The notes beneath the pieces are model-generated. The model was not told where the DNA came from. It did not search any database and was given only the letters and a program-made list of their open reading frames with translations. From assembly GCA_963747695.1 (NCBI GenBank), contig CAVVFV010000003.1, positions 81,296 to 145,295 of the forward strand: a DNA stretch of 64,000 nt, in the 5' to 3' direction. The stretch is from Candidatus Falkowbacteria bacterium. Its GTDB lineage: Bacteria; Patescibacteriota; Patescibacteriia; Patescibacteriales; WJLG01. Each line of letters starts with the position of its first letter. Position 1 is the stretch's first letter. The translations under genes were made by a program, and so were the position numbers. Positions 1 to 47,058 of this stretch are shown here, piece by piece.

Positions 1-454
1 TTAGCTTGGCGGCAAATGCCGGATTTTTCTTGGCTAATTCAGCAAATAATTCTTGAGCTGTCATTTTCTCTTTTTCAGCGCGTACCGGCAAATCAGGTTT
101 GATTTCCGTCAGTTGATAATTTTCCACGACTGCTTCCAGATATTGGCCCGAACCGCCGACGATGATCGGCAGCTTGCCTCGTTCCAAAATATCTTCAAGC
201 GCGGCAAACGCCTGCTGCTGATATTCGGCGACACTGAATATTTCCCCGGGATCGGCCACATCAATCAAGTGATATTTCACATCTCCGTATTCGGCCAGGT
301 CTTTTCCCGAGCCGACGTCCAGACCGCGGTAAACCTGCCGCGAATCGGCGGAAACTATTTCACCATTAAATTCCCGCGCCAAATCCACGCCAAGCTTGGT
401 TTTGCCGGAAGCGGTTGTCCCTAATATTACGACAATTTTTAAATTTTTTTGCAT
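1..454 (-). CDS. miaA: tRNA dimethylallyltransferase, N-terminal part; the gene runs off the left window edge
   Basis: Not in the ORF track because no stop lies inside the window. My translation from the ATG at 454-452 gives MQKNLKIVVILGTTASGKTKLGVDLAREFNGEIVSADSRQVYRGLDVGSGK... The P-loop GTTASGKT plus SADSRQVYRGLDVGSGK is the MiaA signature. Confidence 0.85.
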   Translation of the reverse strand, partial: MQKNLKIVVILGTTASGKTKLGVDLAREFNGEIVSADSRQVYRGLDVGSGKDLAEYGDVKYHLIDVADPGEIFSVAEYQQQAFAALEDILERGKLPIIVGGSGQYLEAVVENYQLTEIKPDLPVRAEKEKMTAQELFAELAKKNPAFAAKL

Positions 455-536
455 AATTGACTAACTGGCGATCATAATGATAAACTGATTCGATATTACC
501 AGAATTAAACGTTCATTTCAAATAAGGAGAATAAAA

Positions 537-1265
537 ATGGATAATGATATTAATCCGGTCTTCAACTTCAAAACTGGTTCAATTTTTTTGAGCGATTTTC
601 CAGCCGTGGCTGGCATCACTCCGATCGCCGCCGGTGATTTCAGCAAAAACAGCGTTCACGATGAATTCATTCTGGATCATCAGCTGACCAATCAGCTGGG
701 CGGGCATTCCTACCATAAAATCTACGACGGGCAAAGCAACGCGATCGTTTTCAGCAACGACTGCGGCGCTTATCGCTACTGCGGGGCGCTGATCAGTTAT
801 CAGGAAACCTACGAGCCGGAAGTCCTCATTTGCACGACCGCTGATAGCGCGACGGTAGTACTCGCGACCGAAGACCATAAACTGATCGCAATCATCTACT
901 GCGGCGAAGATGAAACCGCGGATTGGATCGTACCTAAGACCATCGAGGTGATCCGGCGAAGATGTAAAATTGATCCGGGAGAAATTGTGGTTGGCCTGTT
1001 CCCGGGAATTTGCCACCGTTGTAACGGATCAGTCGATGAGTCCCATCGCGACGATCCGTTGCTTCGTTTAGATGAAGGGATCGATCTCAAGCGCATCATC
1101 CAGCGGCAATTATGGGATAGCAATATTGATTCGTTGAAGGTCAGATATTCCCATCTTTGCTCCTATGAATCAAAATTCAGAGTAGACGGCAAGCCGATCC
1201 TTTATTCAGCCCGAAGGAATGATCAGCAGCGAAACGCCGTCTTCATTTCCCGCATCCCCTTTTAA
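537..1265 (+). CDS. PgeF/YfiH (laccase-domain, DUF152)-like protein with substituted conserved Cys/His positions
   Basis: 242 aa. The overall pattern matches: TTADSATVVL resembles TADCxP, AIIYCGEDE sits at the HAGWRG position, GICHRCNG, and C-terminal LCSY...YSARRND...RNAVFI resembles CT...FSYRRD...GR. Similarity is judged by eye only. Confidence 0.4.
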   Translation: MDNDINPVFNFKTGSIFLSDFPAVAGITPIAAGDFSKNSVHDEFILDHQLTNQLGGHSYHKIYDGQSNAIVFSNDCGAYRYCGALISYQETYEPEVLICTTADSATVVLATEDHKLIAIIYCGEDETADWIVPKTIEVIRRRCKIDPGEIVVGLFPGICHRCNGSVDESHRDDPLLRLDEGIDLKRIIQRQLWDSNIDSLKVRYSHLCSYESKFRVDGKPILYSARRNDQQRNAVFISRIPF

Positions 1266-2593
1266 CGAAGGGGATTTTTTTTAACAAGTTTTCCGGTCAA
1301 ACCAAAATCTTTCGCTTCAAAAATCTTGACCTTGACGAATTCACCTTTAAGCTTATCAGCCGCCGAACCGAGGATCTTGACCGTGATGAATTGCTCGTTT
1401 TTGCCCAGCCACTCTCCGCGCTTATTCTTTTCGGTAACCAAGACCTGGATAACTTTATTTTTATAACGCTGATTATTTTTCCAAGCCGTTTTTTTTAGGA
1501 TTTCATTCAAAGCTTCCTCGCGGCGTTGTTTTTCGCGGGCCGATACGTTATCCGGCAATTTAGCCGCGGCGGTTCCCGGCCGCGGACTGAAACGCGCGAG
1601 ATAGACCATATCATATTTTGCCTGTCGCATCAGTTTTTCCGTGTTAGCGAATTGGGTTTTAGTTTCGCCGGGAAAGCCAACTATAATGTCGGTCGAAATT
1701 CCGATTGCCGGAAGCGCGGCTCTTAATTTTTTAATCAAGCTTAAATAATGCTTCACAGTGTATTTACGATTCATCGCCGCGAGTATCCGGTCGTCGCCCG
1801 ACTGCACCGGCAGATGGATCTGCCGGCAGATCTTGGAATTTTTTTTCATTACCGCGATCAACTCTCTACTCATATTCTTGGGATGCGAAGTGAAAAACCT
1901 AATCCAAAAATCCCCGGGCAATCTAGCAACGGCCGCCAAAATTTCCGGGAAATAAATATCCTCGCCGATTTTCTTCCTGGGAAAATATTTCAAATCGCTT
2001 TTACCGACGATCGCCGCGTAACTATTCACATTCTGGGCGATCAAAACAATTTCTTTATATCCTTGGGCGATAAAATTCTCGGCTTCTTTGATAATCGTCC
2101 CGGCCGAACGATAAACTTCCCGGCCGCGGGCATAAGGCACCACGCAATACGAACAAAAATTATCGCAGCCATTGCCGATCGGCACATAGGCGGAAAATTC
2201 CGATTCGGTCTTGGGAAAGATATCCAGATAATCGGCGGCGATGAATTTTTTATTTTTCAGGCCAAGTTCGCGGTCAAGCTCGGGCAAATTCTTGATCGGC
2301 AAAAAGATATCCACCACACCAGCTAATCTTCTTTTCACATCCGGCCTTTCCGAAAGGCAACCCGTCAGGACTATCTTGACGGCAGGATTTTTTTTCCTGA
2401 TCTCCGGAATCAAGCCGTAATTGCGATCTTCGGCTTTTTGGCGGATACCGCAGGTATTCAAAACCACCAAACCGGCCTTGGCGCGGTTCGGTTCGTAGCG
2501 GTAGCCGTAAGATTCCAGGTATCCAGCCACTCGTTCGCTATCGGAAATATTCATCTGACAGCCGATGGTGATGATATGATAAGATTTGGTCAT
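1262..2593 (-). CDS. miaB: tRNA-i6A37 methylthiotransferase (radical SAM)
   Basis: 443 aa. N-terminal YHIITIGCQMNISDSE, radical-SAM cluster motif GCDNFCSYCVVPYARGRE, and a C-terminal TRAM-like tail. Confidence 0.9.
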   Translation of the reverse strand: MTKSYHIITIGCQMNISDSERVAGYLESYGYRYEPNRAKAGLVVLNTCGIRQKAEDRNYGLIPEIRKKNPAVKIVLTGCLSERPDVKRRLAGVVDIFLPIKNLPELDRELGLKNKKFIAADYLDIFPKTESEFSAYVPIGNGCDNFCSYCVVPYARGREVYRSAGTIIKEAENFIAQGYKEIVLIAQNVNSYAAIVGKSDLKYFPRKKIGEDIYFPEILAAVARLPGDFWIRFFTSHPKNMSRELIAVMKKNSKICRQIHLPVQSGDDRILAAMNRKYTVKHYLSLIKKLRAALPAIGISTDIIVGFPGETKTQFANTEKLMRQAKYDMVYLARFSPRPGTAAAKLPDNVSAREKQRREEALNEILKKTAWKNNQRYKNKVIQVLVTEKNKRGEWLGKNEQFITVKILGSAADKLKGEFVKVKIFEAKDFGLTGKLVKKNPLR

Positions 2594-4430: not shown

Positions 4431-4524
4431 GAAGATTGGAATTTAGAATATGGAATATGGAATTTGGAATATAAATATATAGATATTATATATAATTTTA
4501 GAGCTTTTGACAAATAACAAAGAA

Positions 4525-4553
4525 TTGACAAGAGAAATAAGATTATATATAAT
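4525..4553 (+). promoter_or_regulatory. Sigma70-type promoter upstream of tRNA-Leu (TTGACA-17 nt-TATAAT)
   Basis: TTGACA at 4525-4530, a 17-nt spacer, then TATAAT at 4548-4553, read directly. tRNA-Leu starts about 85 nt downstream. Confidence 0.6.
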
Positions 4554-4636
4554 AAAAACATTGAAAAAGCTTGCTGGAAGCTTTTTATTTTAGGAAATTC
4601 TAAATTCCATTTTCCAAATTCCAGCTTCCGAGATCC

Positions 4637-4720
4637 GGGCGTGTGGCGGAACTGGCAGACGCGCACGACTCAAAATCGTGTGGAAGCAATTCCATGAGAG
4701 TTCGATTCTCTCCATGCCCA
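4637..4720 (+). tRNA. tRNA-Leu(CAA), class II with long variable arm; no encoded CCA
   Basis: Hand fold: acceptor GGGCGTG/CATGCCC, anticodon arm CACGA-CTCAAAA-TCGTG, variable hairpin GGAA-GCAA-TTCC, T arm GAGAG-TTCGATT-CTCTC. Confidence 0.9.
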
Positions 4721-4726
4721 CAAAAG

Positions 4727-4760
4727 AAAAAGACCGGCTCTTTTGGCCGGTCTTTTTATT
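4727..4760. terminator. Intrinsic terminator hairpin after tRNA-Leu, usable in both directions
   Basis: AGACCGGC (4731-4738) pairs with GCCGGTCT (4746-4753). It is flanked by an A-run on one side and a T-run on the other. Confidence 0.75.
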
Positions 4761-4874
4761 TTGGCTTTGGAGAATCGAACGTGAGGGGTTTGGGGAACGG
4801 CAGTTCCCCACCGTTTCCGAGGGATGGTATTGGAAGGGGTGGAAACCCCTTCCAAAGAGGAGCGCCAGCGACGA
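4761..4874 (-). repeat. GC-rich hairpin module (copy E1) inserted between tRNA-Leu and a duplicate of its 3' end
   Basis: 4761-4780 is an imperfect inverted copy of the tRNA-Leu T-loop/acceptor 3' strand. Hairpins sit at 4792-4809 and 4832-4853. The reverse complement aligns over about 90 nt with 37905-37985. Confidence 0.7.
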
Positions 4875-4899
4875 TTCGATTTCTCTCCATGCCCACAAA
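4875..4899 (+). repeat. Direct repeat of the tRNA-Leu 3' end (T loop to discriminator plus 4 nt)
   Basis: TTCGATTTCTCTCCATGCCCACAAA here versus TTCGATTCTCTCCATGCCCACAAA at 4701-4724; the only difference is one extra T. Confidence 0.85.
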
Positions 4900-4902
4900 T
4901 AA

Positions 4903-4930
4903 AAAACTTCGGCGTCTAGCCGGAGTTTTT
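4903..4930 (+). terminator. Second intrinsic terminator, after the duplicated tRNA-Leu 3' end
   Basis: CTTCGGC pairs with GCCGGAG around loop GTCTA, followed by a T-run. Confidence 0.6.
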
Positions 4931-4957
4931 TAAATAAATAGAAAAAAATTCATTGTC

Positions 4958-5995
4958 TCATCTGGCAGATCGCGCATTAATGATATCGCCGATAATAATA
5001 TTAGCGGTCATCGCCAAGGGAATCGCCAGCACCGTGCCGACGATGCCGGCCAATTCAAAGCCGATCAGCATCACCGCGATGATAATGATCGGATTCAAAC
5101 CGATAATCCGTCCCATCACTTGCGGCACGATGACATGGCCTTCCAGCCAGTGAGTGAGATAATAGAGGACTGCGACGGCGATCACCAGCACCGGCGCCTG
5201 GATGAAGGAAACCAACAGCGCTGGAATGGCCGAAATCAGCGGCCCAAGATAAGGAATAAACTCGGCGATCCCGGCGATCAGCGCCAGAACCAAGGCGTAT
5301 TTGACTCCGATGATCAGCAAACCGACGTAAACGATAGTGAAAACGATCAACGATAAGAGCAACTGGCCTCTTAACCATCTGCCCACGCCGCGTTCAATCC
5401 GATCGGACAGACTCAAAGCGTAAGGCTGATTCTCCGGCGGGACGACCGACCTGATCAATTTATTCAGCGCCCGATCTTCGACTAACATATAAAACGTCAA
5501 GACCATAATCAGGATAAATGACAGAATTCCGCCAAAAAAAGTCACCAGCGAAGAAAAAATCTTTCCCGCCGCTCCCTGCCAATTTGCTCCCAGCGAGTTT
5601 ACTTCATCGACCAGCGACGCGTTGGTCTGATTACTATCCGAGTAACCGTCCAAGAAAGACAGGCTGTTCGTCACCTTGGAAATATATTCCGGGGAATTCC
5701 TGGAAAATTCAACGACTTCCCGGGCAACCGGCGGCACAAACAGATAAACCGCCATGCCGATTAAAAAAATAACAATCAAATAAAGGATCGCTGCCGACAA
5801 AACGCGGGGAATTTTTCGCCGCTGCAACCAGTCAACCGCCGGCTGGATGGCGCTGGAGAGGAGAAAAGCGACGAAAAGAATAACTAAGACGCTTCTGACC
5901 ATAAATAAAAAATAAATCGCCGCCAAAACGACGATTATTTTTAAAATTCCCTGCCAGGAAATATTAATATTGATTACCTTTTTACTTTCTTCCAT
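4958..5995 (-). CDS. AI-2E family transporter (PerM/UPF0118-type permease)
   Basis: 345 aa with multiple TM segments. The conserved C-terminal block ...LIAGIAEFIPYLGPLISAIPALLV... is typical of the family. Confidence 0.75.
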   Translation of the reverse strand: MEESKKVININISWQGILKIIVVLAAIYFLFMVRSVLVILFVAFLLSSAIQPAVDWLQRRKIPRVLSAAILYLIVIFLIGMAVYLFVPPVAREVVEFSRNSPEYISKVTNSLSFLDGYSDSNQTNASLVDEVNSLGANWQGAAGKIFSSLVTFFGGILSFILIMVLTFYMLVEDRALNKLIRSVVPPENQPYALSLSDRIERGVGRWLRGQLLLSLIVFTIVYVGLLIIGVKYALVLALIAGIAEFIPYLGPLISAIPALLVSFIQAPVLVIAVAVLYYLTHWLEGHVIVPQVMGRIIGLNPIIIIAVMLIGFELAGIVGTVLAIPLAMTANIIIGDIINARSAR

Positions 5996-37547: not shown

Positions 37548-37663
37548 ACGATTCCTCCGCTTCCATTGGATTGGGTTTATTATTAAAAAATGTGCTTTCC
37601 ACACCAAACATTAACCAGATAAATTATCATAATTAGCACTATTTTGTCAAATGATTTTCTTTC

Positions 37664-38003
37664 GCCATGGGCGGCCGACGCTCGTCCCGCCGCGGCGGGA
37701 TCGTTCCCTCGCGAACTTTGTCTTGCTTCCAACCAGCACACACCTCGGTCACTCGCCGCCGGAATGCGGCTCGCTCCCTTGTCCAGGGTCAGCACCAACG
37801 TGCCCCGGCACGTTGGCGATCGCTCAGCTGTTCGCCGCTCGTTCCCTCGCGGCTCTCGCTTCGCTCCTGACCAGCGCACAAAAATTTGAAGCTTCGCTTT
37901 GTAAGGGGCCTCCGCCCCTTCCAATACCATCCCCCGAAAACAGTGGGAAACTTACGTTTCCCAAACCCTTCCTAGTTCAAATCTTGTTGGGACCCGCGCA
38001 CCA
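37664..38003 (+). repeat. Composite GC-rich structured module (copy E2, the longest), ending in an inverted copy of the tRNA-Lys 3' end
   Basis: The region is open in several frames on both strands and clearly GC-richer than its flanks. Hairpins sit at 37755-37770, 37795-37816, 37903-37920 and 37945-37962. 37975-38003 equals the tRNA-Lys T-loop-to-CCA sequence with a 5-nt insertion. Confidence 0.7.
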
Positions 38004-38038
38004 ATAAAAAATACCGCTTTTGCGGTATTTTTTATTGG
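38001..38038. terminator. Perfect 17-bp palindromic terminator shared by tRNA-Lys and module E2
   Basis: CCAATAAAAAATACCGC-TTTT-GCGGTATTTTTTATTGG. Confidence 0.75.
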
Positions 38039-38111
38039 TGCGCCCAACAAGATTTGAACTTGTGACCTTCTCCTTAAAAGGGAGCTGCTCTACCAGCTGA
38101 GCTATGGGCGC
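38036..38111 (-). tRNA. tRNA-Lys(TTT) with encoded CCA
   Basis: The reverse complement folds as GCGCCCA-TA-GCTC-AGCTGGTA-GAGC-A-GCTCC-CTTTTAA-GGAGA-AGGTC-ACAAG-TTCAAAT-CTTGT-TGGGCGC-A-CCA. Confidence 0.9.
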
Positions 38112-44893: not shown

Positions 44894-44923
44894 TTGACTA
44901 TTGAACGTTCGTTCAACTATACT
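44894..44923 (+). promoter_or_regulatory. lexA promoter (TTGACT-18 nt-TATACT) with an embedded LexA (Cheo-type) box
   Basis: GAACGTTCGTTC at 44903-44914 fits GAAC-N4-GTTC and lies between the -35 and -10 elements. Confidence 0.7.
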
Positions 44924-44924
44924 T

Positions 44925-45012
44925 GAGGGGGAAACCCTTGGTCGGGTTTCCCCCTCAATACTCCCCCTTCCAAGGTGGCTCGTGGCGCGGAATGAATCCG
45001 CCGCCACTCACC
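44925..45012 (+). repeat. Two GC-rich hairpins in the lexA 5' UTR; possible partial member of the module family
   Basis: A 13-bp perfect stem pairs GAGGGGGAAACCC with GGGTTTCCCCCTC. The following CAATACTCCCCC resembles CCAATACCATCCC at 37921-37933. A second hairpin has a GGAATGAATCC centre. Confidence 0.35.
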
Positions 45013-45068
45013 ATTTTTCGCAACCCACGGCGCATTAAAAAATTAATATAAATTTATACCAATCATCC

Positions 45069-45635
45069 ATGAATAAAAATTATCTGCGCAAAATTTCTAA
45101 ATTCTTCCACGACCGCCGGCGCATGCCGAGTTATCAGGAAATAATGGCTGCTTGCGGTTTCAAATCCAAGAACGCCGCTTATTATCTGGTTAATAAACTG
45201 ATCGGACAAGGCTTGCTCAAAAAAGATCGCACTGGAAAATTAATTCCTCTGGCGGCTTTTTTTGCCATACCGATTTTGGGCACGGTCGAAGCCGGTTTCC
45301 CTTCTCCGGCCGAAGAAGAGACGACTGACCTCTTAAGCCTGGATGAATATCTGATTGAAAACAAAGAAGCGACTTTCATCTTGAAAGTTTCCGGCGAATC
45401 GATGATTGATGCCGGCATTATGCCCGGCGATATGGTTCTGGTGGAGCGCGGCCGCGATCCCCGCGACGGCGACATTGTCATCGCCGAAGTGGACAATGCC
45501 TGGACGATGAAATATTTCCGCAAAAAAGGGAATAAGATAATTCTGGAACCGGCCAACAAAAAATTCCCGCCGATCGTCCCCAAAAGCGACCTTCGCGTCG
45601 CGGCGGTCGTCCGGTCGGTGATACGGAAATATTAA
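45069..45635 (+). CDS. lexA: LexA repressor (S24 peptidase)
   Basis: N-terminal winged-helix region, followed by VSGESMIDAGIMPGDMVLVER and a later Lys in TMKYF. Confidence 0.9.
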   Translation: MNKNYLRKISKFFHDRRRMPSYQEIMAACGFKSKNAAYYLVNKLIGQGLLKKDRTGKLIPLAAFFAIPILGTVEAGFPSPAEEETTDLLSLDEYLIENKEATFILKVSGESMIDAGIMPGDMVLVERGRDPRDGDIVIAEVDNAWTMKYFRKKGNKIILEPANKKFPPIVPKSDLRVAAVVRSVIRKY

Positions 45636-45639
45636 AACA

Positions 45640-45734
45640 AATATCCAATATCAAATAACCAATACTCAAAACAATATTAAAATATTTTAATATTAAATTA
45701 TTTTTTGGTTATTTGATATTTTTTATTGGTTATT
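45640..45734. repeat. AT-rich palindromic spacer with the ATATCCAATATCAAATAA theme, copy 2
   Basis: AAATATCCAATATCAAATAACCAATA ... TTGGTTATTTGATATTTTTTATTGGTTAT. Confidence 0.75.
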
Positions 45735-45741
45735 TTCTGCT

Positions 45742-47058
45742 ATGCCTTTTGGAACTCATCCTTTATCATCTTTCCCTCGCGCCATTCTGCATATCGATGG
45801 CGATGCTTTTTTCGCTTCCTGCGAACAATCCAGAGATCCGAAGTTGCGCGGCAAGCCGGTCATAACCGGCGCTGAACGCGGTATTGCCGCCTCGATGAGT
45901 TATGAGGCCAAAGCCTGCGGCGTCACCCGAGCGATGCGATTATCGGAAATCAAGCGGATCTGCCCGGGCGCGATAATCTTGCCTTCCGATTATGAAACTT
46001 ATAGCATCTTATCGCAGCGGCTTTATGATATTGTCCGCCGCTACACGCCCGAAGTAGAAGAATATTCAATCGATGAGTGTTTCGCCGACTTAACCGGGAT
46101 GCGCCGCACTTTGCGGATGTCTTATCCCTCTATCGCCGAAAAGATCAAAGATGATCTGGCCCGCGAACTGGGTTTTACTTTTTCCATGGGATTGGCGCCC
46201 AATAAAGTGGTGGCAAAAATCGGTTCCAAATGGAACAAACCCAACGGCCTGACTGTCATTCCGGCCCGAGACATCCCGAATTTTACCGGTAAGCTGCCGG
46301 TGAAAAAAGTTTGGGGTATTGGTCCCTCAACCACGGCTTTTTTAAATAAATTCGGCATCCGCACCGCGCTGGATTTTTCCATGAAAGATGAATCTTGGGT
46401 AAACCAATATTTAAGCAAACCATTCCAGGAAATCTGGCGCGAACTTAACGGCGAAGCGGTTTACGCACTCAATCTGGAGACTAAAGAAAGCTATGCTTCA
46501 ATCCAGAAAGTAAAAACCTTCACTCCCCCATCGCGCGATCGCGATTTTGTCTTTTCCCAGCTGGGAAAAAATATTGAAAACGCCTGCATCAAAGCCCGAC
46601 GCTATAAATTGGCCGCGGAAAAAATCTATTTTTTCCTCCGCACCCAGGATTTCCACGACCGCGGGATGGAAATTAAATTTTCCCGCCCCACTTTTTTCCC
46701 TCACGAGATAATCAAAGCGGTGGACGAAAATTTCAATCAGATTTTCCGGAAAAATACTTTATACCGTTCCACCGGCATCACGTTGATCAATCTGGTCGAC
46801 AGCGAAATCAAACAGCCGGATCTTTTCGGCGTCACCGCCAAGATTGAAAAGGTCACCCGGGTTTATGAGGCAATCGATGACATTAGAGCTAAATACGGCA
46901 AACACACTACGTATCTGGGCGCCAGTTTCTTCGCGCAAAATTTTTCCCAGCATCAAGGCGAGCGTGGCAAAGCTGCCGAGCGCAAGCATAATCTTTTCAA
47001 AGGCGAAACCGCCCGCCGCCGTCTGGAAATCCCGATGTTTCTGGGCAACGTTAATTGA
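45742..47058 (+). CDS. dinB: Y-family DNA polymerase IV
   Basis: ILHIDGDAFFASCEQ and SIDECFADLTG. 438 aa, immediately after lexA. Confidence 0.9.
   Translation: MPFGTHPLSSFPRAILHIDGDAFFASCEQSRDPKLRGKPVITGAERGIAASMSYEAKACGVTRAMRLSEIKRICPGAIILPSDYETYSILSQRLYDIVRRYTPEVEEYSIDECFADLTGMRRTLRMSYPSIAEKIKDDLARELGFTFSMGLAPNKVVAKIGSKWNKPNGLTVIPARDIPNFTGKLPVKKVWGIGPSTTAFLNKFGIRTALDFSMKDESWVNQYLSKPFQEIWRELNGEAVYALNLETKESYASIQKVKTFTPPSRDRDFVFSQLGKNIENACIKARRYKLAAEKIYFFLRTQDFHDRGMEIKFSRPTFFPHEIIKAVDENFNQIFRKNTLYRSTGITLINLVDSEIKQPDLFGVTAKIEKVTRVYEAIDDIRAKYGKHTTYLGASFFAQNFSQHQGERGKAAERKHNLFKGETARRRLEIPMFLGNVN

What the first reader, a model, noticed from the sequence alone, without database searches (positions are those of the whole stretch)
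4637..4930. tRNA-Leu locus: a 175-bp hairpin-rich insert bracketed by inverted and direct copies of the tRNA 3' end
Seen in sequence, in order:
- An intact tRNA-Leu(CAA) lies at 4637-4720, followed by a terminator hairpin at 4731-4753.
- 4761-4780 (TTGGCTTTGGAGAATCGAAC) is an imperfect inverted copy of the tRNA T loop and acceptor 3' strand. The terminator palindrome is therefore extended to almost 40 nt per arm.
- A GC-rich block carries two strong hairpins: GGGGAAC-GGCA-GTTCCCC at 4792-4809 and GGAAGGGGT-GGAA-ACCCCTTCC at 4832-4853.
- 4875-4899 is a direct repeat of the last 24 nt of the tRNA region (TTCGATT[T]CTCTCCATGCCCACAAA), followed by a second terminator at 4905-4930.

Inference: the order is tRNA with one 3' end and terminator, then the insert, then a second 3' end and terminator. 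Site-specific integration into a tRNA 3' end leaves this footprint. The insert is tiny, however, and encodes nothing.
Basis: partly seen in the sequence, partly recalled or inferred. Interest (0 to 1): 0.62.

Follow-up and report, generated by a model that had tools for sequence, protein, structure and literature searches.

The report
Small hairpin element copying tRNA tails
The 175-bp insert behind tRNA-Leu is one copy of a small non-coding hairpin element, seen in several Patescibacteria genomes behind different tRNA genes, whose two arms always repeat (one inverted, one direct) the tail of its neighbouring tRNA; I found no description of such an element.

Summary
The interpretation, a footprint of integration into a tRNA 3' end, is only partly right.

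**What it is.** The insert belongs to a family for which I found 12 copies.
- Two are in this window: behind tRNA-Leu(CAA) at 4758-4899, and a decayed copy behind tRNA-Lys(UUU) at 37874-38003 on the minus strand.
- The others lie behind tRNA-Leu(CAA), tRNA-Arg(CCG), tRNA-Arg(GCG) and tRNA-Lys(UUU) in other Patescibacteria contigs.

**Layout of every copy.** The order is tRNA, terminator hairpin, left arm, ~94-nt core, right arm. The left arm is the reverse complement of the neighbouring tRNA from G53 onward. The right arm is a direct copy from T54 onward. The core has covarying hairpins and an invariant AAAGAGGAGCGnnAGCGACGA block.

**Evidence for mobility.**
- The arms change with the tRNA, while the core stays 91-96% identical.
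- Orthologous sites are occupied, empty, or filled with other DNA in a patchy way.
- Old copies decay.

**Best reading (confidence 0.55).** It is a non-autonomous mobile mini-element that inserts by recombination in the T-loop-to-3'-end segment. Its arms form a hairpin that mimics the target duplex, as in the CTX phage attP. No enzyme was found, and how the arms get re-specified is unexplained.

No matching Rfam family or paper was found.

The parts
4525..4553 (+). Consensus sigma-70-type promoter (TTGACA-17-TATAAT) upstream of tRNA-Leu. It is the only promoter-like site that could drive the downstream element.
   Evidence: 12/12 match. No promoter-like site was found between terminator 1 and the core.
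4637..4721 (+). Intact tRNA-Leu(CAA). Its segment G53-A73 (4700-4720) is 'copy 1' of the repeated target segment.
4727..4757 (+). Terminator hairpin T1, two-way (A run before the stem, T run after).
   Evidence: (I6). The exact 19-mer GGCCGGTCTTTTTATTTTG recurs as the distal terminator T2 in L133.
4761..4780 (+). Left arm: reverse complement of the tRNA from G53 outward. It is exact for 11 nt (4770-4780) and degenerate beyond that.
   Evidence: (I11).
4781..4874 (+). Conserved 94-nt core.
- H1: 4792-4809, GGGGAAC-GGCA-GTTCCCC.
- H2: 4810-4828, variable.
- H3: 4830-4855, with a GGAA loop.
- Invariant block AAAGAGGAGCGCCAGCGACGA: 4854-4874.
- Candidate loop pairing: GGC at 4799-4801 with GCC at 4864-4866.
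4875..4899 (+). Right arm: direct copy of the tRNA from T54 to A73 plus AAA, with one extra T after TTCGATT. It pairs with the left arm to close the core.
   Evidence: (D1).
4900..4932 (+). Terminator hairpin T2, two-way, 25 nt from the stop codon of the convergent AI-2E permease gene. It resembles T1 of the L133 and L004 copies.
   Evidence: (I10).
38036..38111 (-). tRNA-Lys(UUU), the neighbour of the second copy in the window.
38004..38035 (-). Terminator hairpin of the Lys-linked copy. It forms a perfect palindrome with the tRNA end (GCGCACCAATAAAAAATACCGC / its complement).
37975..38003 (-). Left arm of the Lys-linked copy: reverse complement of tRNA-Lys from G53 to CCA, with 5 extra nt. 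Its T-loop part is TTCAAAT, matching tRNA-Lys rather than tRNA-Leu.
   Evidence: score 70.
37891..37974 (-). Core of the Lys-linked copy, 83-90% identical to the other type I cores. Its 3' conserved block is partly deleted.
   Evidence: (68.2 bits, E = 3e-15).
37874..37890 (-). Degenerate right arm of the Lys-linked copy (TTCAAATTTTTGTGCGC).

Best explanation
The insert is one copy of a family of miniature, non-coding, non-autonomous mobile elements of Patescibacteria. They insert into the T-loop-to-3'-end segment of tRNA genes.

**Shown:**
- The inserted DNA lies between the tRNA body and its native 3' flank.
- The segment T54 to the 3' end is present twice in direct order, a Campbell-type (att-like) duplication, so the tRNA stays intact.
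- Between the two copies lie a terminator hairpin, an inverted copy of the same tRNA segment, and a ~94-nt structured core.

**Inferred:**
- The free form is a small circle or single strand of about 175-180 nt (segment A, T1, inverted A', core).
- A' and A pair into a stem of about 15-20 bp with one bulged T or one mismatch at T-loop position 58-60. This stem imitates the double-stranded target, with the core as a forked ~95-nt loop. The geometry is that of the CTX-phage attP(+) hairpin, which host XerCD recombines with dif.
- A recombinase supplied in trans, by the host or another element, exchanges strands within segment A.
- Spread to the same tRNA locus of related cells needs only DNA uptake and homologous recombination.

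**Not explained:** how both arms get rewritten when the element moves to a different tRNA.
For: **(1) Family.**
- A metagenome pattern scan found 5 more copies.
- A covariance model built from 7 copies found a second window copy (68 bits), L060 (29 bits) and a remnant in L136 (24 bits).
- A search with spurious-ORF peptides found L151.
- About 108 tRNA-Leu(CAA) loci of other phyla gave no hit.

**(2) Arms follow the neighbouring tRNA.**
- The direct arm matches the tRNA-specific 12-mer of its own tRNA at 9-12 of 12 positions, against 5-9 for non-cognate tRNAs.
- The inverted arm starts at G53 in all 11 aligned copies. It matches 17/17 nt for Lys and Arg(GCG) and has the cognate T-loop variant in the Lys copy and L060.

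**(3) The core is not tied to one tRNA.** The window Leu copy is 95.7% identical to an Arg(GCG) copy and 94.7% to an Arg(CCG) copy, but only 78.6-85.7% to copies at the orthologous Leu site of relatives. The L134 genome appears distant: its ABC ATPase is 42% identical.

**(4) Patchy presence at the Leu site, by permease identity to the window.**

| State | Loci |
|---|---|
| Occupied | window; L004 (85%); L006 (82%); L151 (69%); L133 (permease gene absent) |
| Empty | L011 (74%); probably the 82% and 71% relatives |
| Other content | L002 (85%); L009 (78%); L152 (81%) |

Sources.

**(5) Empty versus occupied within one contig.** In L134, tRNA-Arg(GCG) is followed directly by its flank. At the occupied tRNA-Arg(CCG) the homologous flank follows copy 2.

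**(6) Terminators are swapped.** Window T1 equals L133 T2, and window T2 resembles T1 of L133 and L004. This is expected if a circle carrying its own terminator recombines within segment A in hosts with different native terminators.

**(7) Decay.** The Lys-linked copies are eroded differently in the window and in L136, and several arms are degenerate. This is how selfish insertions behave.

**(8) Structure under selection in the tRNA-sense strand.**
- 92.8% of cells are paired, and 19 pairs change on both sides; 0 of 500 shuffles reach either value.
- G-U to A-C counts in core helices are 28:5.
- A loop-to-motif pairing covaries: GGC/GCC, GUC/GAC, GGU/GUC, GAU/GUC.

**(9) Precedent.** The CTX-phage ssDNA carries two target-like sites in opposite orientation about 90 bp apart. 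They form a 150-nt forked hairpin recombined by host XerCD, and integration leaves one functional site and two non-functional copies (PMC3089051).
Against: - No recombinase, reverse transcriptase, HUH or transposase gene lies in the 64-kb window or next to any copy.
- No free or circular form, and no copy in viral contigs.
- A sequence-specific recombinase would not be expected to accept arms that differ between tRNAs. No known hairpin-att system rewrites both strands of its stem for a new target.
- The GNRA-type GGAA loop, the G-U excess and the loop pairing fit an RNA at least as well as folded DNA.
- T1 is locus-specific within the window (Leu versus Lys) but nearly identical at the two Arg sites of L135. 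Whether T1 travels with the element is therefore not settled.
- Only 12 copies are known, the alignments used for pair counts were fitted to the model, and the collection scans needed exact patterns. The census is incomplete.
Confidence: 0.55

Rival explanations
1. Same mobile family, but only the core is transmitted, as RNA or single-stranded DNA. Both arms are synthesised from the target at each insertion.

One possible route:
1. A nick at G53/T54 primes copying of the core.
2. The new strand snaps back on the primer strand, which produces the inverted arm.
3. It then switches template at the terminator palindrome.

The element would re-target itself to any tRNA gene that has a T-loop and a downstream hairpin.
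For: - Both arms match four different tRNAs while the core stays 91-96% identical.
- All arms begin at the same tRNA position, G53/T54.
- In L004, T1 and T2 are direct near-duplicates, as this route predicts.
- The right arm always carries an extra T or a substitution at T-loop positions 58-60, which could be a junction or copying error.
- The structure, with its GNRA loop and G-U excess, suits an RNA template.
- From memory, not checked here: Neurospora retroplasmids capture tRNA sequences by template switching and integrate at tRNA genes.
Against: - No reverse transcriptase is in the window or beside any copy.
- In L134 the empty tRNA-Arg(GCG) site has no terminator next to the tRNA, and T1 of the occupied site differs from what follows copy 2. 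T1 there looks element-borne, not copied from the target.
- The T1 hairpins of the two Arg sites in L135 are near-identical.
- The route needs three template switches and has no documented bacterial precedent.
Confidence: 0.2
2. It is a functional structured small RNA encoded in the tRNA 3' trailer and co-transcribed by read-through of T1. Its antisense and sense arms interact with the tRNA 3' half or mimic it (processing by RNase P/Z, decoy or regulator). It spreads by duplication and is not mobile in itself.
For: - Strong fold, z = -6.5.
- Covarying helices, a GGAA tetraloop, G-U to A-C of 28:5 and a covarying loop pairing, all on the tRNA-sense strand.
- The element always has the orientation of the tRNA and usually has its own terminator T2.
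- In the read-through transcript, the left arm can pair with the tRNA 3' half and the tRNA 5' end with copy 2.
Against: - A strong terminator lies immediately upstream and no promoter lies between it and the core.
- Distribution among close relatives is patchy, with empty sites.
- Copies decay and arms are often degenerate.
- Near-identical cores occur in apparently distant genomes.
- No Rfam family matches.
Confidence: 0.15
3. It is the decayed remnant of a larger integrative element (prophage or island) that once integrated in the tRNA 3' end. That would make it a cis-mobilizable-element-like scar with attL and attR.
For: - A direct repeat of the tRNA 3' end brackets the insert.
- The site is a hot spot with other cargo in relatives.
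- Cis-mobilizable elements are defined as elements that kept attL and attR but lost their integration and transfer genes (PMC5704250).
Against: - The same ~94-nt core, of the same size, lies behind four tRNA species with arms re-specified. Independent decay of large elements would not converge on this.
- The inverted arm is not part of an attL/attR pair.
- There are no gene fragments inside, and the core hairpins covary.
Confidence: 0.07
4. The second 3' end belongs to a decayed tandem duplicate of the tRNA gene (a pseudo-tRNA).
For: - The 24-nt 3' end is duplicated.
- The closing stem plus three hairpins is topologically a cloverleaf.
Against: - No tRNA match in 4758-4900 even at E <= 10, and ARAGORN finds none.
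- The copy starts exactly at T54, and the 5 nt before it (GACGA) do not form a T stem.
- The same core lies behind tRNA-Arg and tRNA-Lys genes.
Confidence: 0.02

Closest known systems
CTX-phage-type IMEX: integrative elements that use host XerCD through a folded single-stranded attP hairpin
   Same: - Two target-like sites in opposite orientation about 90-95 nt apart pair into a forked hairpin of about 140-150 nt.
- The hairpin stem imitates the double-stranded target and carries an imperfection.
- The element encodes no recombinase.
- The integrated state has one functional target plus two extra copies (PMC3089051; window).
   Different: - The target here is a tRNA gene segment (T54 to the 3' end), not dif.
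- The whole element is about 175 nt with no genes and no replication module.
- The arms differ between copies according to the tRNA.
- Neither single-stranded DNA nor Xer involvement is shown.
Cis-mobilizable elements (CIMEs) and other integrase-less att-flanked remnants at tRNA 3' ends
   Same: It is non-coding, lies 3' of a tRNA, and is bracketed by direct copies of the tRNA 3' end. Any mobility would need an enzyme in trans (PMC5704250).
   Different: - CIMEs are decay products of ICEs or IMEs, with arbitrary content.
- Here a conserved structured core of fixed size recurs at several tRNA species.
- It also carries an additional inverted copy of the site.
Bacterial MITEs and palindromic repeats (Correia, RPE, REP/BIME; from general knowledge)
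   Same: It is small, non-coding, folds as a long hairpin with terminal inverted repeats, occurs more than once per genome, and is mobilised in trans.
   Different: - The 'terminal inverted repeats' are copies of the target, not of the element.
- The duplication is 15-24+ nt, not 2-10 nt.
- Position and orientation relative to tRNA genes are strict.
Integron attC sites (from general knowledge)
   Same: An imperfect hairpin of one strand, with an extrahelical base, is recognised by its structure. Length is 60-140 nt, and strand choice matters.
   Different: - The R''/R' consensus (RYYYAAC / GTTRRRY) is not met: ATCGAAC / ATTCGAT.
- There are no cassettes and no integron integrase nearby.
Group IIC introns, which insert just after intrinsic terminators (from general knowledge)
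   Same: The structured element sits directly 3' of a terminator hairpin and contains a segment antisense to upstream sequence, in the manner of EBS-IBS pairing.
   Different: - The core is about 94 nt, with no domain V/VI and no reverse transcriptase.
- The antisense segment is about 17-20 nt and is matched by a sense copy.
Integration at the 3' end of tRNA-Leu(CAA)/leuX by P4-type integrases (from general knowledge)
   Same: The same tRNA species is used, and the same about 20-nt T-loop-to-acceptor segment serves as the repeated site.
   Different: Those elements are kilobases long, encode their own integrase and use one tRNA. None is known with an inverted copy of the site.

Membership tests
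tRNA / pseudo-tRNA (Rfam RF00005) | Cloverleaf scoring above threshold, or at least a recognisable D arm, anticodon arm and T arm. | tested here: not met
   No tRNA match in 4758-4900 at E <= 10. ARAGORN reports only 4637-4721 in this region.
Any Rfam 15 RNA family | Covariance-model match at the gathering score. | tested here: not met
   The only hit above the gathering score in the region is the tRNA. The best sub-threshold hits on the insert are terminator look-alikes or score <= 22 bits.
CTX-type IMEX (folded ssDNA attP) | Two target-like sites in inverted orientation that pair into a hairpin stem mimicking the target, separated by about 90 nt. | tested here: met
   The left arm (4761-4780) and right arm (4875-4899) are 94 nt apart and pair as a stem. 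The same holds in 11 other copies.
CTX-type IMEX (folded ssDNA attP) | The target is the chromosome dimer resolution site dif, recombined by XerC/XerD. | tested here: not met
   The target is the tRNA T54-to-3'-end segment. No Xer gene lies in the window. Activity cannot be tested here.
CTX-type IMEX (folded ssDNA attP) | A single-stranded circular replicative form. | not testable with these tools
   No free form was seen, and there are no copies in viral contigs.
Cis-mobilizable element (CIME) | Flanked by attL and attR (direct repeats of the target end), without integration or transfer genes. | tested here: met
   The direct repeat 4701-4724 / 4875-4899 brackets an insert with no credible ORF.
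Cis-mobilizable element (CIME) | Derived by decay from an ICE or IME, so that related full-length elements use the same att sites. | tested here: inconclusive
   No full-length relative was found in the loci, viral contigs or pattern scans. The collection scans were limited to exact patterns.
MITE | Terminal inverted repeats that belong to the element and are the same in all copies. | tested here: not met
   The arms differ between copies and match the neighbouring tRNA.
MITE | Short target-site duplication (2-10 bp). | tested here: not met
   The duplicated segment is 15-24 nt or longer.
Integron attC | R''/R' core sites RYYYAAC / GTTRRRY, within a cassette array next to an integron integrase. 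| tested here: not met
   The inner arm ends read ATCGAAC and ATTCGAT. The neighbours are parA and a permease gene.
Group IIC intron | Catalytic domain V/VI and usually an intron-encoded reverse transcriptase. | tested here: not met
   The core is 94 nt. There is no group II intron hit in Rfam and no reverse transcriptase in the window.
Retron non-coding RNA | An msr-msd RNA closed by inverted repeats, with a reverse transcriptase gene adjacent. | tested here: not met
   The closing stem is present, but the neighbouring genes are parA/permease and argG/msrA.

The most novel reading that the evidence does not exclude
Only the ~94-nt structured core is inherited. The element rewrites both of its arms from whichever tRNA gene it enters. 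This could happen by target-primed or fold-back synthesis starting at a nick at G53/T54, or by some other templated step. On this reading it is a self-retargeting, protein-less insertion element (or guide-like RNA) that can colonise any tRNA gene, a mechanism without a described bacterial counterpart.
Probability: 0.3. Interest if true: 0.9.

Novelty: new variant of a known kind. Interest (0 to 1): 0.75.

Why it matters
**If it is mobile.** It would be one of the smallest site-specific insertion elements known, at about 175 bp with no gene. It would show that the hairpin trick of imitating the target, known from the cholera-toxin phage and from integrons, is also used at tRNA genes in the reduced genomes of Patescibacteria.

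**The arms.** Both an inverted and a direct copy follow the neighbouring tRNA while the core stays constant. This points to a step that reads the target sequence. Working out that step could reveal a new way of programming DNA insertion.

**Practical consequences.**
- These elements create long palindromes and duplicated tRNA ends, which may contribute to broken metagenome assemblies; contigs ending at this site were seen for other GC-rich inserts, not for this element.
- They produce spurious small ORF calls (P0241, P0242).
- They could be mistaken for prophage att sites.

**If it is instead an RNA gene.** It would be a new structured RNA class tied to tRNA 3' ends.

Tried and rejected
- **Rfam, gathering and permissive thresholds.** Only the tRNA is found. 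The weak hits are terminator look-alikes.
- **Decayed second tRNA.** Rejected (the core also lies behind Arg and Lys tRNAs).
- **Viral-contig scans** with the tRNA 3' end, the conserved block and the H1 region. No hits. A looser 17-base pattern gave 13 loci, all chance matches by the covariance model.
- **Genome-collection scan with the tRNA-Leu anticodon-arm pattern.**
  - It did serve as a negative control: no element at about 108 non-Patescibacteria loci.
  - It also yielded the distant copy in L060.
- **Search for an enzyme.** Pfam on about 50 window ORFs and on the neighbours of the L134 and L135 copies. All are housekeeping genes. An IS4-type transposase lies 9 kb from the L134 copy and is probably unrelated.
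- **Small ORF in L002/L009 at the same site.** The two are homologous but have no Pfam match. It was not pursued as a candidate enzyme.
- **Literature.** No description of such an element was found.
- **Ribozyme or other known motifs** (hammerhead, HDV-like, twister, SRP, 6S, tmRNA, Y-RNA-like). These were considered from the anatomy. None is supported by Rfam or by the conserved sequence.
- **Fold-back model with T1 copied from the target terminator.** It fits L004 but conflicts with L134 and L135, so it is kept only as a rival.
- **Bridge-RNA (IS110) and TnpB/IscB guide-RNA analogies.** These were considered because the arms match the target. They were rejected as membership claims: both arms cover the same target segment and pair with each other, no such protein is nearby, and the scaffold is too small.
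Full report
**1.

The window comes from a Patescibacteria genome; the closest named relative is GCA_028716485.1, 'Patescibacteria group bacterium'.

- tRNA-Leu(CAA) lies at 4637-4721 (+), downstream of a perfect TTGACA-17-TATAAT promoter at 4525-4553.
- The order after it is: terminator hairpin T1 (4727-4757), an inverted copy of the tRNA T-loop/T-stem/acceptor strand (4761-4780, exact over 4770-4780), a GC-rich block with hairpins at 4792-4809 and 4830-4855, a direct copy of the last 24 nt of the tRNA region with one extra T (4875-4899), and a second hairpin T2 (4900-4932).
- The + strand of 4758-4935 folds at -86.2 kcal/mol, z = -6.5. The inverted and direct copies pair as a closing stem around three hairpins.
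- As DNA, the tRNA 3' end, T1 and the inverted copy form one long hairpin, z = -9.1.

**2. It is an insertion**

Synteny (dnaE, a 500-aa gene, AI-2E permease, tRNA-Leu, parA, parB) is conserved in relatives found through permease homologues.

| Locus | Permease identity to window | State of the tRNA-Leu 3' site |
|---|---|---|
| L004 | 85% | Homologous insert |
| L006/L007 | 82% | Homologous insert |
| L151 | 69% | Homologous insert |
| L133 | permease gene absent | Homologous insert |
| L010/L011 | 74% | Only tRNA plus terminator |
| Two further relatives | 82% and 71% | Spacers of 303 and 341 nt against 527 here; DNA not retrievable |
| L002/L003 | 85% | A small homologous ORF instead |
| L009 | 78% | A small homologous ORF instead |
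| L152-L154 | 81% | A different GC-rich hairpin block |

The site is therefore polymorphic in a way that does not follow relatedness.

**3. It is a family, and the arms follow the neighbouring tRNA**

- A metagenome scan with the block conserved among the first three copies (GAGGAGCGNNAGCGACGATTCGATT) returned four contigs with five copies. One lies behind tRNA-Leu(CAA), three behind tRNA-Arg(CCG) and one behind tRNA-Arg(GCG).
- A covariance model built from seven copies then found three more:
  - a second copy in this window, 37878-37987 (-), 68 bits, E = 3e-15, directly 3' of tRNA-Lys(UUU);
  - a diverged copy behind tRNA-Leu(CAA) in Parcubacteria GW2011_GWB1_40_14 (L060);
  - a remnant behind tRNA-Lys in the genome that also carries L006 (L136).
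- In all eleven aligned copies the inverted arm begins at G53 and the direct arm at T54 of the adjacent tRNA.
- The tRNA-specific 12-mer after the T-loop is found in the direct arm at 9-12 of 12 positions for the cognate tRNA, against 5-9 for other tRNAs.
- The inverted arm is exact for 17 nt at the Lys and Arg(GCG) sites. It carries the cognate T-loop variant at Lys (TTCAAAT) and in L060 (TTCGACT).
- The core between the arms is 94 nt. Its identity between the window Leu copy and the four Arg-linked copies is 90.4-95.7% (L135 Arg(GCG) 95.7%, L134 94.7%). Against copies at the orthologous Leu site of relatives it is only 78.6-85.7%. There are thus at least two core subtypes.
- The L134 genome appears distant from the window: its ABC ATPase is 42% identical, though orthology was not established.
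- No copy was found at about 108 tRNA-Leu(CAA) loci of other phyla, nor at 11 of the 12 other candidate-phyla loci fetched.

**4. Which DNA is the insert**

- L134 carries an empty tRNA-Arg(GCG) that is followed at once by a TTCAAATT(G/C)CGAATTACGA flank. At its occupied tRNA-Arg(CCG) the homologous flank follows the direct copy, not the tRNA.
- The inserted DNA therefore lies between the tRNA body and its native 3' flank, and the T54-to-3'-end segment is duplicated. This is the layout expected from Campbell-type recombination of a circle that carries that segment.
- The terminators agree with this. Window T1 shares an exact 19-mer with T2 of L133, and window T2 resembles T1 of L133 and L004. 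That is expected if the element brings its own terminator into hosts whose native terminators differ.
- T1 is not uniformly element-borne, however. It differs between the window's Leu and Lys copies, yet is nearly identical at the two Arg sites of L135.

**5. The core is a folded single strand under selection**

- On the model-fitted alignment of 11 copies, 92.8% of cells pair and 19 of 40 pairs show changes on both sides. 0 of 500 shuffles reach either value, and slid controls give 45-59% paired.
- Hairpin 3 is 98.8% paired, with six pairs changed on both sides. In L060 its sequence is entirely different, but the hairpin is kept.
- Core helices contain 28 G-U pairs against 5 A-C pairs. The structure therefore belongs to the tRNA-sense strand.
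- The tetraloop of hairpin 1 covaries with the two variable bases of the invariant block GAGCG-NN-AGCG: GGC/GCC, GUC/GAC, GGU/GUC, GAU/GUC. This suggests a loop-to-strand tertiary pairing.
- The arm stem always carries a bulged T after TTCGATT or a mismatch at position 58.
- Caveats: there are few sequences, the alignment was fitted to the model, and arm covariation is automatic because both arms copy the tRNA.

**6. Behaviour of a selfish element**

- The Lys-linked copy in the window has lost part of the conserved 3' block and most of its right arm.
- The orthologous Lys copy in L136 keeps only the left arm and hairpin 1.
- Several left arms are riddled with indels.
- Secondary insertions occur inside copies: a ~20-nt palindrome in the hairpin-3 loop of both L135 copies, and about 190 nt inside hairpin 2 of L133.

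**7. Mechanism**

- No integrase, Xer, reverse transcriptase, HUH or transposase gene lies in the 64-kb window or beside the copies. The element is therefore non-autonomous.
- The anatomy is two target-like segments in opposite orientation about 94 nt apart, pairing into a forked hairpin of about 140 nt whose stem imitates the target duplex and has one imperfection. The integrated state has one functional and two extra copies of the site.
- This matches the CTX-phage attP(+) hairpin that host XerCD recombines with dif (PMC3089051). It also recalls integron attC sites (general knowledge).
- I therefore favour integration by recombination between a folded hairpin site and the T54-to-3'-end segment, catalysed in trans. 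Spread between related cells could then occur by DNA uptake and homologous recombination.
- The insertion, the duplication, the hairpin geometry and the patchy distribution are shown. The free form, the enzyme and the strand-exchange chemistry are inferred.
- The model does not explain how both arms are re-specified for a new tRNA while the core and sometimes T1 are kept.
  - A target-templated route (nick at G53/T54, copying of the core, snap-back synthesis) would explain this and fits L004, where T1 and T2 are near-duplicates.
  - It conflicts with L134 and L135, where T1 looks element-borne.
- A purely RNA-level function remains possible. In the read-through transcript the left arm can pair with the tRNA 3' half and the tRNA 5' end with copy 2. 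Against it stand the upstream terminator, the lack of a promoter, the empty sites and the decay.

**8. Comparison with known systems and novelty**

- It is not a tRNA, not any Rfam family, not a MITE in the strict sense (the arms are target copies and the duplication is long), not an attC site, not a group II intron and not a retron RNA. The membership table gives the tests.
- It shares the att-flanked, gene-less state of cis-mobilizable elements (PMC5704250), but it has a conserved core and an inverted site copy.
- It works most like a CTX-type hairpin attP, but at tRNA genes and with retargetable arms.
- Five literature searches found no description.
- I rate it a new variant of a known kind (miniature integrative element with a hairpin site). 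There is a substantial chance, about 0.3, that the arm-rewriting step is a new mechanism.

Noticed in passing
window 4437-4472 and 4595-4629: GGAATTT/GGAATAT-rich 33-nt inverted repeats (82-86% complementary) bracket two back-to-back consensus promoters: 4525-4553 (+) for tRNA-Leu and 4513-4485 (-) for parA. They could be a regulator or ParB-type binding array, or a processing stem.
   Followed up: no
window about 37600-37873 (minus strand): A GC-rich stretch of about 270 nt lies between the Lys-linked element remnant and argG. It contains a repeated GCGAGGGAACGA, and a GGAGCGAAGCGAGAGC that resembles the element's GGAGCGCCAGCGACGA block. It may be a second, unrelated or partial insertion.
   Followed up: no
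window 44900-45020: Another GC-rich double-hairpin block sits in an AT-rich spacer: GAGGGGGAAACCC...GGGTTTCCCCCTC, then GGTGGCTCGTGGCGCGG...CCGCCGCCACTCACC. It lies upstream of an S24 peptidase (LexA/UmuD-like) gene and a Y-family polymerase gene (45069-47058).
   Followed up: no
L002 5141-5485 (-), L003, L009 5121-5381 (-): A small conserved ORF (114 aa; 34% identity between the two genomes, E = 3e-12; no Pfam match) occupies the same tRNA-Leu 3' site in two relatives.
   Followed up: partly
L002 about 5530-5570 (-); L135 about 405-425 and 735-755 (-): A palindrome of 16-20 nt (CCTGCCGGCAGGCAGG / GCCTGCCTGCCGGTAGGCAGG) is inserted in the T-loop of a partial tRNA 3'-end copy in L002. It is also inserted in the hairpin-3 loop of both element copies of L135, but not in the orthologous copy in L132. 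It may be a tiny mobile palindrome.
   Followed up: no
L133 about 320-510 (-): An AT-rich insertion of about 190 nt, with 18-nt inverted ends, lies inside hairpin 2 of the element. L133 also lacks the permease gene, so the tRNA-Leu region abuts the 500-aa gene.
   Followed up: no
L152, L153, L154 (3533-3761): Three independent contigs of one relative (permease 81% identical) all end about 230 nt past the permease gene. They end in a different GC-rich hairpin block (GTGGGCGCAGCCCAC, GTGGGCGCGGCCCAC), which suggests a repeat that breaks assemblies at this hot spot.
   Followed up: no
L132 115-140 (+): A 5' fragment of tRNA-Arg(CCG) (GCTCTCGTCGTTCAACGGAT) is duplicated about 90 nt upstream of the intact gene and is followed by unrelated sequence. 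tRNA 5' ends are therefore also disrupted or duplicated in these genomes.
   Followed up: no
L135 872-944 (-) versus L134 2388-2460 (-): tRNA-Arg(GCG) at the occupied site has C70, which gives an A3-C70 mismatch in the acceptor stem. The empty-site allele in L134 has T70. This hints that the 3' end of the working tRNA at an occupied site is not the original one.
   Followed up: no
L134 about 400-470 and 100-160 (-); 2340-2385 and 2465-2500 (-): The tRNA-Arg genes of this genome are flanked on both sides by TTCGAA-rich mutually complementary sequences. These could form a long precursor-processing stem.
   Followed up: no
window 4590-4898 (-) and 4643-4933 (+); P0241, P0242: The element is open in several reading frames. 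Gene callers have deposited spurious 55-56-aa 'hypothetical proteins' that are translations of its minus strand. These peptides can be used to find further copies.
   Followed up: yes
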